From Escherichia coli (GTDB taxonomy: Bacteria > Pseudomonadota > Gammaproteobacteria > Enterobacterales > Enterobacteriaceae): a stretch of DNA of 64,000 nucleotides. The position numbers and the translations under genes are program-made. Location of the stretch: assembly GCF_030013205.1 (NCBI RefSeq), contig NZ_CP122648.1; one strand, written 5' to 3'. A model generated the notes under the pieces. It was not told where the DNA came from and made no database searches. It worked only from the letters and a program-made list of their open reading frames with translations. This document shows, in pieces, positions 1 to 60,182 of the stretch; positions within the stretch are counted from its first letter, which is position 1, and each line of letters starts with the position of its first letter.

Positions 1-414
1 TAAGTAATGCTTTAAATGCTTTAACTAGTTCTTCTTGCTTAGCCGAGCTTCGCATAAGTCACCCGATATGGTGGTTGATACAACATTATTGTGCATACAG
101 ATGAATTTTTATGCAAACAGTCAGCCCTGAAGAAGGCTGAAATAATGTTATGAAAGAGCGGGATTTTATCAAATTTCGTTATTGAGAAACATGCCTGCGT
201 CACGGCATGCAAATTCTGCTTAAAAGTAAATTAATTGTTATCAAATTGATGTTGTTTTGGCTGAACGGTAGGGTATATTGTCACCACCTGTTGGAATGTT
301 GCGCTAATGCATAAGCGACTGTTAATTACGTAAGTTAGGTTCCTGATTACGGCAATTAAATGCATAAACGCTAAACTTGCGTGACTACACATTCTTGAGA
401 TGTGGTCATTGTAA

Positions 415-19243: not shown

Positions 19244-22200
19244 TTACTGCGCCTGCACGCGCAACTCTGCTGCGCTACGACTACGGTGACCCAGCAGTGC
19301 TTTTACATCACTGGACTTCGGTTTAACCAGCGCAAATTTAGTGGCGAAGGTTGACCAGTTCGCCAGAATCTCTTCACCGCGCTGAGAACCGGTATGCTGA
19401 ACATGCTCGGTGATAAGACCGCGCAGATGCTCTTCATGGATCGCCAGATCGTCAACGCTTAAGACCTCGACCAGTTCCGGGTTAACGCGTTTGCGGAAAT
19501 CGCCGCTTTCATCGAGAACGTAAGCGAAGCCGCCGGTCATGCCCGCGCCGAAGTTAACGCCGGTTTTACCCAGAATACAGACAATACCGCCCGTCATATA
19601 TTCACAGCCGTTGTCGCCAATGCCTTCTACCACGGTGATAGCACCGGAGTTACGCACGCCGAAACGTTCACCCGCGCGGCCTGCGGCATACAGACGACCT
19701 CCGGTCGCGCCATACAGGCAGGTGTTGCCGATAATGCTTGCTTCATGGCTGCGGAAGGCTGAGCCAACCGGAGGACGAATGGCGATTAAGCCGCCCGCCA
19801 TGCCTTTACCGACATAGTCGTTGGCATCACCGGTCAGGTACAGTTCCACGCCGCCCGCGTTCCACACACCGAAGCTCTGGCCTGCGGTGCCGTTGAAGTA
19901 CGCTTTGATCGGATCGGCTGCCAGACCCTGATCGCCGTGCGTCTGGGCGATATAGCCTGAAAGCGACGCGCCGACAGAACGGTCGGTGTTGCGAATATCG
20001 AACCAGAAGGTTTTGCTCTGACGCTCATCGACAAACGGTTTTGCCTGTTGCAGCAACTGTGCGTTCAGCAGGCCGTTATCAAACGGCGGGTTGTTTTCGG
20101 TACAGTAGAGCGCCTTACCTGGATGCGGCTCAGCGGTCTCCAGCAGTTTCGACAGCGCCAGTTTCTGCTGTTTGGCGGTGAAACCGTCCAGCTCTTTCAG
20201 CAGGTCGGTGCGACCAATCAGATCCACCAGACGCGTTACCCCCAGCTGTGCCATCAGCTCGCGGGTTTCACGGGCGATAAACTCAAAGTAATTAGTCACC
20301 TTGAACGGCAGGCCGTGATAGTGATTCTTACGCAGTTTGTCATCCTGAGTTGCTACACCCGTCGCGCAGTTGTTCAGGTGGCAAATACGCAGATATTTAC
20401 AGCCGAGCGCCACCATCGGACCGGTGCCGAAGCCGAAGCTTTCTGCGCCGAGAATCGCCGCTTTGATGATATCGACACCCGTTTTCAGGCCGCCATCGAC
20501 CTGCAAACGAATTTTATGACGTAAACCGTTGGCAACCAGCGCCTGTTGGGTTTCCACCAGGCCGAGTTCCCACGGACAGCCTGCGTATTTCACCGATGAA
20601 AGCGGACTTGCGCCGGTGCCGCCATCATAGCCTGCGATGGTGATTAAATCGGCATAAGCTTTCGCCACGCCAGTCGCGATGGTGCCTACGCCCGGTTCGG
20701 AAACCAGCTTCACGGAGATCATCGCTTTCGGGTTAACCTGCTTGAGGTCGAAAATAAGCTGCGCTAAGTCCTCGATAGAGTAGATATCATGGTGCGGCGG
20801 CGGGGAGATCAGCGTCACTCCGGGCACCGAATAGCGCAGTTTGGCGATGTAAGGCGTGACTTTATCGCCCGGTAACTGACCGCCTTCGCCCGGCTTCGCG
20901 CCCTGGGCGACTTTAATCTGAATGACGTCGGCATTGACCAGATACGCCGGAGTAACCCCAAAGCGACCGGAAGCCACCTGCTTGATGCGCGACACTTTGT
21001 TGGTGCCGTAGCGTGCCGGATCTTCGCCGCCTTCACCGGAGTTAGAGTTGCCGCCGATGCTGTTCATCGCTTCAGCCAGCGCCTCGTGGGCTTCCGGGCT
21101 TAACGCGCCGATAGACATCGCAGCGGTATCGAAGCGTTTAAACAGTTCGCTTGCCGGTTCAACATCAGCAATGTTGACCGCGTTTTCACCCGGCGTAATT
21201 GCCAGCAGATCGCGCAGCGTGGTTGCCGGACGCTCATTAACCAGCTTCGCGTATTCCTGATAGTCGCTGTACTCGCCGCTTTGTACCGCCTGTTGCAGCG
21301 TGCGCACCACGTCCGGGTTGTAGGCGTGGTATTCGCCGCCGTGCACATATTTCAGCAGGCCGCCCTGGCTGATGGGCTTACGCGCCAGCCAGGCACGTTT
21401 CGACAGATTCAGCAGATCCTGCTGGAAGTCTTCAAAGCTTGCCCCGCCAATGCGGCTGACCGCGCCCTGGAAGCACAGGCCCACTACATCATCGTGTAGA
21501 CCGACCGCTTCAAACAGTTTCGAGCAGCGGTAAGAGGCGATGGTGGAGATGCCCATTTTGGACATGATTTTGTACAAGCCTTTGTTGATGCCGTTACGGT
21601 AGTTGAGCATCACGGTACGATAATCTTTGGCAATCGCGTGGGTGTCTACCAGGCGGCCCAGCGTTTCATAGGCAAGGTACGGATAAATAGCCGTCGCACC
21701 GAAGCCCAGCAACACGGCGAAATGGTGCGGATCGCGGGCGCTGGCGGTTTCGACGATGATGTTGGCATCGCAACGCAAGCTTTGATCGACCAGACGGGTC
21801 TGGATCGCGCCAACCGCCATCGGGGCTGGAACCGGCAGGCGATCTTTAGCGATATTCCTGTCGGAGAGCACCAGCAGCACAGTGCCGCTACGTACCATTT
21901 TTTCAGCTTTGTCGCACAGCTCTTTGACCGTCGCTTCGAGCGTGGTTTTGGTGACGTCAAAGGTGATATCCAGTGTATCTGCGCGGTAGTGCTCCTCTTT
22001 CATCGTCGTGAGCTGTTTGAAATCGGAGTAGAGCAGAATCGGCGATTTAAAACTTAAACGGTGCGCCTGGCCCTCTGCTTCACAGAAGACGTTCATTTCA
22101 CGCCCTATGCTGGTGGCGAGCGACATAACATGCGCTTCACGCAGTGGGTCGATTGGCGGGTTGGTGACCTGGGCAAATTGCTGGCGGAAGTAATCGTAAA

Positions 22201-23797
22201 TAATGCGCGGCTGACTGGAGAGCACGGCGAATGGGGTGTCGTCGCCCATCGAACCGACCGCTTCCTGACCGTTTTCGCCCAGTACGCGAATTACGGAGTC
22301 CAGCTCTTCCGCGCTGTAGTTAAACTGTTTCTGGTAGCTGGCAAGTGTGTCGTCGTCCAGTTCGCGGCTACCCACTTCTTCATCGGGCAGATCTTCAAAC
22401 GGTACCAGTCGGCGGACGTTTTTCTCCATCCACTCTTTATATGGATGGCGGCTTTTCAGATCGTCATCAGTTTCTGCCGAGTGCAGAATGCGCCCACTGC
22501 GAGTGTCGATCACCATCAGTTCGCCTGGCCCGACGCGGCCTTTTTCGACCACTTCGTCAGGCTGATAATCCCAGATACCGACTTCAGAGGCGCAGGTGAT
22601 GAGCTTATCTTTGGTGATGACGTAGCGCGCCGGACGCAGACCGTTACGGTCGAGGTTACAGGCGGCAAAACGACCATCGGACATCACGATGCCCGCCGGG
22701 CCATCCCACGGCTCCATATGCATGGAGTTAAAGTCAAAGAAGGCACGCAGTTCCGGGTCCATATCCGGGTTGTTCTGCCAGGCGGGTGGTACTAACAGAC
22801 GCATGGCGCGGATGATATCCATCCCGCCTGCCAGCAGCAGTTCCAGCATGTTATCCATGGAACTGGAGTCAGAGCCGGTTTCGTTGACGAACGGCGCGGC
22901 GTCGTGCAGGTCAGGGATCAGCGGCGTCTGGAATTTATAGGTACGCGCACGCGCCCATTGGCGGTTGCCGGTGATGGTGTTGATTTCACCGTTATGCGCC
23001 AGGTAGCGGAACGGCTGCGCCAGCGGCCAGCGCGGTACGGTGTTAGTGGAGAAGCGCTGGTGGAACAGGCAAATGGCCGATTCCAGACGCAGGTCCGCAA
23101 GATCCAGGTAGAAGCGCGGTAGATCCGCCGGCATACACAGACCTTTATAGATGTTCACCAGATTCGACAGGCTACAGACGTAGAAGTCTTTGTCGGCTTC
23201 GAGACGCTTTTCAATGCGGCGGCGGGCGATAAACAGACGGCGCTCCATATCGCGCGGACGCCAGCCTGCCGGGGCGTTCACAAAAATTTGCTCAATGCGT
23301 GGCAGAGAGGAGAGGGCGATTTCACCCAGCACGCCTTCGTTGGTGGGGACATCACGCCAGCCCACAATCGATAAGGTTTCGCGTTGCAGCTCTTCTTCAA
23401 CGATGCGGCGTGCGGCAGCGGCGAGTTCAGGATCTTTATTCAGGAAGAGCATCCCGACGGCGTAGTTTTTCGCTAAACGCCAGCCGCGCTCCTGCGCAAC
23501 GATGCGAAAAAAGCGATCCGGTTTTTGTAACAGCAAGCCGCAACCGTCACCGGTTTTACCATCGGCGAGAATCGCGCCACGGTGCTGCATGCGGGCCAGT
23601 GCGTGTATTGCAGTACGCACTACCTTGTGGCTAGGTTCGCCTTCTATGTGGGCGATCAGGCCGAAACCACAGTTATCCCTCTCAAGGGATTTATCGTACA
23701 ACATATCGTGAACCTCCCCCAGGCTCTGCGGGAACCCCACTTCCGAACCGCTGCGCACGGGCACAGAAAGAGCGTGGCGACGGGGGTTGCGTGTCAT
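19244..23797 (-). CDS. gltB: glutamate synthase large subunit
   Basis: about 1517 aa from [20 protein letters not shown] (track ORF extends 5 codons further upstream); amidotransferase Cys in ...[11 protein letters not shown]... Confidence 0.95.
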
Positions 23798-24378
23798 ACG
23801 CGCGCCTCGCATTCGCCCCCTTGTTGTCCTTTTCGCATCGGTTAATACGGTGAAGAGGGGATCTCAATTACTGCATAAATATGATGAGCAGGCTGCTCAT
23901 CCAGAAAGCTTCCAGCGGATTTCCAACTTATCGGGAAAGCTGATACAGGTCAAATGGCAAGCTTATTGGTACAGAAATGTGCTTTAGCGCAAAATTCTTT
24001 ATTAATTTGCTGAAATTAAAGTGGATTTTCTATTTAAGGCTAAAAGGGGCGTCGTTAGAGAAACAGTCAATTCCTGACTGTCATAAAGGCGTGTTAACCC
24101 TTATCCTGCCTTGAACTGACGAGAAAGCCAGCATTTTATACTGCTTTAATTGGTAATGGCATTTTATGCTACTGTTTTTGCCTAAAATCCATAAGGAGAT
24201 AAAAAAATCTGACACAAGATAAGCAAAAATGATTTATGTGATCATGCATGAAATTTCGGTAATTTTGATTGATTATGCAGTTGATAAAAGCAGGCCGGGA
24301 CGATTGATCCAGGTCATCGCCGAATTGAGCTAAAAATGGCAGGCTTTGGCCTCTTTTCAAGGCGCGGTCTATCAGATT

Positions 24379-58300: not shown

Positions 58301-59659
<1,359 letters not shown>

Positions 59660-59695
59660 TTAATTAACTGATGATGAGCCTGGATTTCCGCTCTC

Positions 59696-59732
59696 ACTGA
59701 ATTTTTATGCAAAATAAATGAGTTTTCATTTA
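59696..59732 (-). promoter_or_regulatory. candidate tandem ARG boxes (ArgR operator) in the argG promoter
   Basis: actgaatttttatgcaaa and taaatgagttttcatttaa, two adjacent AT-rich near-palindromes resembling the TNTGAAT-W4-ATTCANW consensus, 50-90 bp upstream of argG. Confidence 0.55.
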
Positions 59733-59879
59733 ATCATCTTTTATCGGAGACAGGAAGAGTTTAGTGTGTTTTTTGTAAAATAATGCGCTTAAGGGAGAGC
59801 AGGAGAAGGCAAAAGTATTCAACAAATGAAAGTGAACTGGATATTCATTCACGTGATTAGCAATAAACGTTGACAAAAT

Positions 59880-59976
59880 GTGGCATGGATCACTATAATG
59901 CCTGCAGATTTTACGTCCCGTCTCGGTACACCAAATCCCAGCAGTATTTGCATTTTTTACCCAAAACGAGTAGAAT
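59880..59976 (+). promoter_or_regulatory. tandem sigma-70 promoters of the metY-rimP-nusA-infB operon
   Basis: TTGACA-18 bp-TATAAT at about 59880-59909, and TTGCAT-17 bp-TAGAAT at about 59948-59976 ending about 15 nt before the tRNA. Confidence 0.6.
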
Positions 59977-59991
59977 TTGCCACGTTTCAGG

Positions 59992-60068
<77 letters not shown>

Positions 60069-60182
60069 CTTTAGTCCTTTTTCAAATATACTGTGAAGAC
60101 TTCGGCCTTCGTAGTGGGATTTGAAAAAATCCTTCTGGAAAGTGCTCCAGACCGCAGTTGCGGTTATAGGGTTCAGTTATAT

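What the first reader, a model, noticed from the sequence alone, without database searches (positions are those of the whole stretch)
59696..59732. Paired ARG-box-like palindromes in the argG promoter
Two adjacent AT-rich near-palindromes, actgaatttttatgcaaa and taaatgagttttcatttaa, lie upstream of argG on its coding strand side. They resemble the tandem ArgR operator arrangement and suggest arginine repression is retained.
Basis: inference. Interest (0 to 1): 0.2.

Follow-up and report, generated by a model that had tools for sequence, protein, structure and literature searches.

The report
Known ArgR operator of argG
The two AT-rich repeats upstream of argG are the textbook pair of arginine-repressor binding sites that shut the gene off when arginine is plentiful; they are identical to E. 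coli K-12, so this is real but ordinary.

Summary
The window is an E. coli chromosome segment, the reverse complement of K-12 from about 3.32 to 3.385 Mb. argG lies at 58301-59644 (-) and the divergent metY tRNA at 59992-60068 (+).

- **Motif score.** I learned an ArgR matrix de novo from nine other K-12 arginine-regulon promoters, leaving argG out. It ranks 59694-59732 as the best 39-mer on either strand of the 64 kb.
- **Box scores.** Box 1 (59696-59713) scores 20.2 bits and box 2 (59717-59734) 14.0 bits, separated by a 3-bp spacer. The pair scores 34.1 bits; random 64-kb sequences give a best pair of 7.1±3.5.
- **Comparison with real operators.** Eight bona fide operators scored leave-one-out give 22-38 bits.
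- **Identity.** The stretch is base-identical to K-12, and a 51-mer over it is identical in 5189 of 5423 E. coli genomes.
- **Conservation.** The pair forms a sharp conserved island: 91% column identity against 37-54% in the flanks across 11 enterobacterial genera.

The boxes overlap the predicted argG core promoter, so the likely mechanism is promoter occlusion by the arginine-bound ArgR hexamer. This is already known and of low interest.

The parts
59696..59713 (.). ARG box 1, the box nearer the argG ATG: ACTGAATTTTTATGCAAA on the + strand, TTTGCATAAAAATTCAGT on the argG sense strand
   Evidence: 20.2 bits, the best single box in the 64-kb window. It matches 17 of 18 positions of WNTGAATWWWWATTCANW and 9 of 10 core positions. 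Identical to K-12.
59714..59716 (.). 3-bp spacer (ATA) between the boxes; centre-to-centre distance is 21 bp
   Evidence: Spacer 3 gives 34.1 bits for the pair, against 7.7 bits for spacer 2 at the same start. 100% conserved across the 11 sequences of the alignment.
59717..59734 (.). ARG box 2, distal to the ATG: AATGAGTTTTCATTTAAT on the + strand, ATTAAATGAAAACTCATT on the argG sense strand
   Evidence: 14.0 bits, the fourth best box in the window. It matches 15 of 18 consensus positions and 8 of 10 core positions. 95% column identity across the 11 sequences.
59735..59742 (-). Invariant 8-bp block AAAAGATG (argG sense) directly upstream of box 2 and outside the ARG consensus. Possibly an UP-element-like or RNA polymerase contact, or an extended ArgR contact.
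   Evidence: 99% column identity across the 11 sequences, while the next 18 bp fall to 63%. Function is inferred only.
59724..59729 (-). Predicted argG -35 hexamer ATGAAA, lying inside box 2
   Evidence: Shimada et al. 2014 list ATGAAA-17-AAAAAT as the argG promoter (PMC3946193). I mapped it onto the sequence. This is a prediction, not a mapped transcription start.
59701..59706 (-). Predicted argG -10 hexamer AAAAAT, lying inside box 1. The implied start is near 59694.
   Evidence: Same source and sequence. The generic promoter scan did not report it, because it matches only 8 of 12 positions.
58301..59644 (-). argG coding sequence (argininosuccinate synthase, 447 aa), the regulated gene
   Evidence: ORF. 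Annotated as argG in every matching RefSeq E. coli genome and in K-12.
59836..59853 (.). Isolated third ARG-box-like 18-mer, ACTGGATATTCATTCACG, just upstream of the metY P1 -35 hexamer
   Evidence: 13.4 bits here and 17.0 bits in K-12, which has A at 59853. About 0.9 boxes of this score are expected per 64 kb by chance. It is not conserved in other genera (28% column identity) and is polymorphic within E. coli.
59879..59894 (.). CRP-like site TGTGGCATGGATCACT, lying in the spacer of the metY P1 promoter
   Evidence: 2 mismatches to TGTGA-N6-TCACA. The pattern is not enriched in the window as a whole. A single CRP site shared by metY and argG is reported (PMC3105977). Assigning it to this position is my inference.
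59870..59899 (+). Divergent metY P1 promoter, TTGACA-18-TATAAT
   Evidence: 12 of 12 consensus match. The same hexamers are listed for metY in PMC3946193.
59992..60068 (+). metY initiator tRNA-Met (CAT), the divergent neighbour
   Evidence: ARAGORN. K-12 annotation as metY.

Best explanation
59696-59734 is the ArgR operator of argG. It consists of two 18-bp ARG boxes (59696-59713 and 59717-59734) separated by 3 bp, so their centres lie 21 bp apart on one face of the helix. When arginine is abundant, one arginine-loaded ArgR hexamer binds both boxes cooperatively. The boxes cover the predicted -35 and -10 hexamers of the argG promoter, so bound ArgR excludes RNA polymerase and represses argininosuccinate synthase expression. 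Shown here: the motif match, spacing, uniqueness in the window, identity to K-12, and deep conservation. Inferred from established knowledge: ArgR binding, cooperativity, and promoter occlusion.
For: (1) A matrix found by EM on nine other K-12 arginine-regulon promoters, with argG excluded, recovers the double-box motif. It ranks 59694-59732 first among all 39-mers on both strands of the window, at 32.3 bits against a random best of 5.7±4.0. (2) With an 18-bp palindromic matrix, box 1 scores 20.2 bits and box 2 scores 14.0 bits. The pair with a 3-bp spacer scores 34.1 bits, against a random best of 7.1±3.5 and a maximum of 24.0. Leave-one-out scores of eight genuine operators are 22.2-38.1 bits. 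(3) Positive controls: the next-best pairs in the window are two other known ArgR sites. One is the gltBDF distal site at 24243-24281, whose position agrees with the DNase I footprint at -361 to -318 in PMC1784095. The other is argR's own operator at 80-117, with a 2-bp spacer. (4) The operator is identical to K-12 MG1655, and a 51-mer over it is identical in 5189 of 5423 E. coli genomes. (5) The pair is found upstream of argG, at 27-37 bits, in 19 further loci: Enterobacteriaceae, Pectobacteriaceae, and one contig labelled Tolumonas. Betaproteobacterial and Acinetobacter argG loci lack it, scoring 7 bits or less. (6) In an 11-sequence alignment (10 named genera) the operator is a conservation island: 91% column identity, against 37% upstream and 54% in the 5' UTR. 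The positions that vary are ARG-box 'n' and 'w' positions. (7) The architecture matches published descriptions (PMC6245113; PMC4381063), and argG repression by ArgR at its promoter is reported (PMC4632782). (8) The boxes overlap the published predicted promoter ATGAAA-17-AAAAAT (PMC3946193).
Against: No binding or expression data were generated. The primary operator-mapping papers could not be read, so the statement that the K-12 operator was mapped exactly here rests on my memory plus sequence identity. The argG transcription start could not be obtained, so overlap with the core promoter rests on a predicted, weak promoter matching 8 of 12 positions. Box 2 alone, at 14.0 bits, is at the level of the best chance hit in 64 kb (14.4±1.9). 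Its significance comes from the exact 3-bp spacing to box 1 and from its conservation.
Confidence: 0.95

Rival explanations
1. The AT-rich repeats are only core-promoter or UP-element sequence of argG, and look like ARG boxes by compositional accident. No repressor binds them.
For: The boxes coincide with the predicted -35 and -10 hexamers. An adjacent non-box block, 59735-59742, is equally conserved, so promoter constraint contributes to conservation here.
Against: Composition-matched random sequence never reached the observed pair score in 200 trials: maximum 24.0 bits against 34.1. The matrix also picks out two other genuine ArgR sites in the same window. The exact 3-bp spacing is specific to ArgR. 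The predicted promoter hexamers are weak, so they would not by themselves explain 91% conservation across the alignment.
Confidence: 0.02
2. The functional element is the perfect 7-nt inverted repeat TAAATGA-N4-TCATTTA (59715-59732). It would be the site of some other dimeric regulator or a DNA/RNA hairpin, rather than an ARG box.
For: It is the longest perfect inverted repeat in the intergenic region.
Against: Its symmetry centre is 2 nt away from the ARG register, and that register scores -13.3 bits. In most other genera the repeat is broken (CTCACT instead of CTCATT), at a position that is a free 'n' in the ARG box, while the ARG-register score stays between 10.5 and 15.8 bits. With the predicted transcription start near 59694, the repeat is not transcribed.
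Confidence: 0.02
3. The boxes are a decayed, non-functional relic in this particular strain, so repression is not retained.
For: The window holds only the first 18 codons of argR, so the repressor cannot be checked directly in the window. The third upstream ARG-like box is weakened by a SNP at 59853.
Against: The operator is identical to K-12. The genome identical to the window at both ends has an ArgR identical to K-12's at 156 of 156 residues. argR's own operator is intact at 80-117.
Confidence: 0.01

Closest known systems
E. coli K-12 argG control region: ArgR operator, shared CRP site, divergent metY (Charlier et al. 1992, J Mol Biol 226:367; Krin et al. 2003, J Bacteriol 185:3139; both cited from memory and from reference lists, not read here)
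   Same: The sequence from the argG ATG through both boxes is 100% identical. The argG/metY divergent arrangement is the same. The 3-bp spacing and position relative to the ATG are the same.
   Different: There are only two SNPs elsewhere in the intergenic region. 59853 is G where K-12 has A, in the third ARG-like box. 59885 is A where K-12 has G, in the N6 of the CRP-like site. metY also differs by one base, and 7 bp are missing after it.
carAB P2 operator and the argF, argI, argECBH, argA, argD, artJ and artP operators of the E. coli arginine regulon
   Same: All have two imperfect 18-bp palindromes 3 bp apart at the promoter (PMC6245113). They were recovered as one motif by EM, and the argG pair scores within their range.
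   Different: Each operator has its own sequence. Box 2 of argG has TAAAT and TGAGT half-sites instead of TGAAT, and the TAAAT deviation is invariant across the aligned genera.
argR autoregulatory operator (window 80-117)
   Same: A pair of ARG boxes at the promoter of a regulon member. One box, GATGAATTTTTATGCAAA, shares 16 of 18 bases with argG box 1.
   Different: 2-bp spacer instead of 3. The 2-or-3-bp spacer range is stated in PMC4381063.
gltBDF distal ArgR site (Paul et al. 2007, PMC1784095)
   Same: A pair with a 3-bp spacer, detected by the same matrix at 24243-24281 with 21.8 bits.
   Different: It lies more than 300 bp upstream of the promoter and does not occlude RNA polymerase. The argG boxes sit on the predicted core promoter.

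Membership tests
ArgR operator (tandem ARG boxes) of the enterobacterial arginine regulon | Each element is an 18-bp imperfect palindrome matching the ARG-box consensus (WNTGAATWWWWATTCANW) | tested here: met
   Box 1 matches 17 of 18 positions (20.2 bits) and box 2 matches 15 of 18 (14.0 bits). The matrix came from 16 boxes of other operators, whose scores range from 8.8 to 22.9 bits.
ArgR operator (tandem ARG boxes) of the enterobacterial arginine regulon | Two boxes separated by 3 bp (2 bp in argR), which places the centres 21 bp apart on one helix face | tested here: met
   The spacer is ATA, 59714-59716. The pair scores 34.1 bits with spacer 3, 7.7 bits with spacer 2, and is not among the top hits with spacer 4. 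The architecture is described in PMC6245113 and PMC4381063.
ArgR operator (tandem ARG boxes) of the enterobacterial arginine regulon | Located at, and overlapping, the promoter of an arginine biosynthesis or transport gene | tested here: inconclusive
   The boxes lie 52-90 nt upstream of the argG ATG. They overlap the promoter ATGAAA-17-AAAAAT predicted in PMC3946193. No experimentally mapped transcription start could be retrieved.
ArgR operator (tandem ARG boxes) of the enterobacterial arginine regulon | Conserved in orthologous promoters of related species that have ArgR | tested here: met
   The pair is present at 27-37 bits upstream of argG in 19 further loci (Enterobacteriaceae, Pectobacteriaceae and one contig labelled Tolumonas), and absent in betaproteobacterial and Acinetobacter loci. 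The operator shows 91% column identity against 37-54% in the flanks.
ArgR operator (tandem ARG boxes) of the enterobacterial arginine regulon | Cognate repressor gene argR present and intact | tested here: inconclusive
   Only the first 55 nt of argR lie in the window. The genome identical to the window at both sampled ends (ETEC4079) encodes an ArgR 100% identical to K-12's.
ArgR operator (tandem ARG boxes) of the enterobacterial arginine regulon | Arginine-dependent binding by hexameric ArgR (footprint, EMSA or ChIP) | not testable with these tools
   This needs a wet-lab experiment. For the identical K-12 sequence it is reported in the literature (Charlier 1992, Tian 1992, cited in PMC4381063), but I could not read those papers.
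ArgR operator (tandem ARG boxes) of the enterobacterial arginine regulon | Arginine- and argR-dependent repression of the downstream gene | not testable with these tools
   Reported for the E. coli argG promoter as used in an arginine biosensor (PMC4632782). Not measured here.

The most novel reading that the evidence does not exclude
The operator is embedded in a slightly larger invariant unit, 59701-59742. The 8-bp block AAAAGATG (59735-59742), directly upstream of box 2, is as conserved as the boxes themselves (99% across the 11 aligned sequences) but is not part of the ARG consensus. It could be an undescribed determinant of argG control. Candidates are an UP-element-like contact, a site for a second factor, or a sequence-specific contact for the third ArgR dimer, which current models treat as non-specific. 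Separately, the common G/A polymorphism at 59853 changes the score of the isolated third ARG-like box by 3.6 bits, and might tune ArgR's influence on the divergent metY promoter between E. coli lineages.
Probability: 0.15. Interest if true: 0.25.

Novelty: already known. Interest (0 to 1): 0.08.

Why it matters
It confirms that this strain keeps the standard feedback control of the second-to-last step of arginine biosynthesis. It also shows that a reader using sequence alone can recognise ArgR operators. It adds nothing new to biology: the site is identical to the characterised K-12 operator and nearly invariant across E. coli. The only mildly useful by-products are a clean conservation map of the argG-metY control region across 10 enterobacterial genera, and the observation of an invariant 8-bp extension next to box 2.

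Tried and rejected
- **Primary papers.** I tried to read the papers that map the K-12 operator: Krin 2003 (PMC154083), Makarova 2001, Cho 2012 (PMC3777760) and Maas 1994 (PMC372985). None is held.
- **ChIP-exo coordinates.** The supplements of the ChIP-exo paper are not held, so no in vivo ArgR coordinates could be taken from them.
- **Transcription start.** I looked for an experimental argG start in three supplements. The Cappable-seq file is cut before 3.3 Mb. The Shigella M90T and Romero 2014 supplements have no argG entry. The start therefore remains a prediction.
- **Alternative promoter.** I considered an extended -10 promoter, TG-n-TTAAAT at 59736-59728, because the TG and the hexamer are invariant across genera. 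I rate it lower because TTAAAT lacks the critical A at position 2 of the -10 hexamer. It is not excluded.
- **CRP site around 59838-59853.** I considered TGGAT-N6-TCACG and rejected it: the half-sites are poor and it did not pass 3 mismatches. 59879-59894 is the better candidate.
- **EM pick in the argR promoter.** The EM choice there (window 211-249) looks wrong, so I left it out of the 18-bp matrix. The real argR boxes, with a 2-bp spacer, were then found at 80-117.
- **Yersinia, Rahnella and Acerihabitans.** Their argG upstream regions did not give a 3-bp-spaced pair. Rahnella has strong single or overlapping boxes. I did not pursue this.

Full report
**Context.** The window is an E. coli chromosome segment. 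Positions 59500-60100 match 5422 of 5426 complete E. coli genomes over at least 80% of their length, and the features under the match are annotated as argG and tRNA-Met. The window runs antiparallel to K-12 MG1655 coordinates. argG is at 58301-59644 on the minus strand, and the divergent initiator tRNA gene metY is at 59992-60068 on the plus strand. Between the argG start codon and metY, the window differs from K-12 at only two bases, 59853 and 59885. Everything from the ATG through the reported elements is identical.

**Observation.** Both strings are present. 'actgaatttttatgcaaa' is at 59696-59713. 'taaatgagttttcatttaa' is at 59715-59733, so the quoted end is one base short. The second contains a perfect inverted repeat, TAAATGA/TCATTTA, with 4 nt between the arms. 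The first is only loosely palindromic.

**Motif test.** I could not retrieve a published ArgR matrix, so I built one independently of argG.
- I fetched nine other K-12 arginine-regulon control regions: carA, argF, argA, argR, argD, argE/C, argI, artJ and artP.
- I ran a seed-exhaustive EM for a 39-nt motif. It converged on the double ARG box in eight of the nine regions.
- Scanning both strands of the window with that matrix puts 59694-59732 first, at 32.3 bits. The best hit in each of 200 composition-matched random 64-kb sequences averaged 5.7±4.0 bits, with a maximum of 20.3.
- A symmetrised 18-bp matrix from the 16 boxes has the consensus AGTGAATAATTATTCACT.
- That matrix scores box 1 (59696-59713) at 20.2 bits, the best in the window, and box 2 (59717-59734) at 14.0 bits.
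- With the canonical 3-bp spacer the pair scores 34.1 bits, against a random best of 7.1±3.5 and a maximum of 24.0.
- Leave-one-out scores of the eight genuine operators are 22.2-38.1 bits, with a median of 29.4. The argG pair is therefore an above-average operator.

**Register of box 2.** The ARG register of the second element is 59717-59734. That register scores -13.3 bits and matches none of the ten core positions. In other genera the perfect repeat is broken at a position that is a free 'n' of the ARG box, while the ARG-register score is kept.

**Positive controls inside the window.** The next-best pairs are both known ArgR sites.
- 24243-24281 scores 21.8 bits with a 3-bp spacer and lies about 430-470 bp upstream of the gltB ORF. 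This agrees with the ArgR DNase I footprint at -361 to -318 of gltBDF (PMC1784095).
- 80-117 scores 20.9 bits with a 2-bp spacer and lies just upstream of the argR start codon at 55-53. This fits argR's own operator. The 2-or-3-bp spacer range is noted in PMC4381063.

**Conservation.**
- A 51-mer over the operator is identical in 5189 of 5423 E. coli genomes.
- A scan of one genome per species with the ArgG protein returned 80 loci.
- A 3-bp-spaced pair scoring 27-37 bits lies upstream of argG in every Enterobacteriaceae and Pectobacteriaceae locus that includes the upstream region. It is also present in one contig labelled Tolumonas.
- Betaproteobacterial and Acinetobacter loci score 7 bits or less. 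Three Pasteurellaceae loci score 6.3 or less, and a fourth (Spirabiliibacterium) reaches 11.1.
- In an 11-sequence alignment (10 named genera) of the argG-metY intergenic region, the operator has 91% column identity. The region between it and the metY promoter has 37%, and the 5' UTR has 54%.

**Mechanism.**
- Established knowledge: one arginine-loaded ArgR hexamer binds two 18-bp boxes 3 bp apart cooperatively, on one face of the helix, and at carAB P2 it excludes RNA polymerase (PMC6245113; PMC4381063).
- At argG, the promoter predicted by Shimada et al., ATGAAA-17-AAAAAT (PMC3946193), maps to a -35 hexamer at 59729-59724 and a -10 hexamer at 59706-59701. The first lies inside box 2 and the second inside box 1 (sequence).
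- I therefore infer promoter occlusion.
- The transcription start itself could not be retrieved, so this step is inferred.
- An alternative start near 59720, from an extended -10-like TG-n-TTAAAT, would place the boxes at roughly -13 to +26. They would still be on the core promoter.
- That argG is repressed by ArgR binding its promoter is stated in PMC4632782.

**Is repression retained?** Only 18 codons of argR are in the window. However, the window is identical over positions 1-400 and 59500-60100 to strain ETEC4079, whose ArgR equals K-12's at 156 of 156 residues.

**Surroundings.**
- A third, isolated ARG-like box lies at 59836-59853. It scores 13.4 bits here and 17.0 bits in K-12, because of the SNP at 59853.
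- That third box is not conserved outside E. coli and is polymorphic within it.
- A CRP-like site, TGTGGCATGGATCACT, lies at 59879-59894, in the spacer of the consensus metY P1 promoter.
- This position fits the reported single CRP site shared by metY and argG (PMC3105977). From memory, it also fits Krin et al. 2003, who found that CRP activates argG and inhibits metY from a single position.
- An 8-bp block, 59735-59742 (AAAAGATG on the argG sense strand), is invariant across the aligned genera and lies outside the ARG consensus. I cannot explain it with confidence.

**Verdict.** This is the already-known argG ArgR operator, unchanged from K-12. Interest is low.

Noticed in passing
window 1-117: The window begins inside argR: its ATG is at 55-53 on the minus strand and the product reads MRSSAKQEELV.... 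argR's own operator is at 80-117, two ARG boxes with a 2-bp spacer scoring 20.9 bits. One of the boxes, GATGAATTTTTATGCAAA, is nearly the same as argG box 1.
   Followed up: partly
window 24243-24281: A second ARG-box pair with a 3-bp spacer (21.8 bits) lies about 430-470 bp upstream of the 1522-aa gltB ORF (19244-23812, minus strand). It matches the published distal ArgR footprint of gltBDF at -361 to -318 (PMC1784095).
   Followed up: partly
window 59735-59742: An 8-bp block, AAAAGATG on the argG sense strand, lies directly upstream of box 2. It is 99% invariant across the 11 aligned enterobacterial sequences but is not part of the ARG-box consensus. It may be an UP-like element, an extended ArgR contact, or another factor's site.
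   Followed up: partly
window 59836-59853: An isolated third ARG-like box lies next to the metY P1 -35 hexamer. The window has G at 59853 where K-12 has A, which lowers the matrix score from 17.0 to 13.4 bits. The window allele is common: the 51-mer around it is identical in 2313 of 5426 E. coli genomes. The box is not conserved in other genera.
   Followed up: partly
window 59879-59894: A CRP-like site, TGTGGCATGGATCACT, sits between the -35 and -10 hexamers of the consensus metY P1 promoter (TTGACA-18-TATAAT, 59870-59899). The window has A at 59885 where K-12 has G, in the N6 spacer. The site is poorly conserved across genera (49% column identity).
   Followed up: partly
window 60038 and 60072/60073: metY has G at 60038 where K-12 has A. 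This is tRNA position 46, so this strain's metY encodes the tRNAfMet1-type sequence rather than K-12's tRNAfMet2. Seven bases present in K-12 (CCCTTAG) are missing right after the tRNA 3' end. Only 6 of 5425 E. coli genomes match 59500-60100 at 99% or better.
   Followed up: partly
window 55-59644: The distance from the argR ATG to the argG ATG is 59,589 bp here and 66,066 bp in K-12 MG1655. About 6.5 kb present in K-12 is therefore absent from this strain somewhere in the window. I did not locate it.
   Followed up: no
L029, L030, L031, L033 (Yersinia, Rahnella, Acerihabitans argG loci): These Yersiniaceae and related argG upstream regions lack a canonical 3-bp-spaced pair within 400 bp. Rahnella has strong but overlapping or differently spaced boxes (15-19 bits). 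metY is not the divergent neighbour outside Enterobacteriaceae.
   Followed up: no
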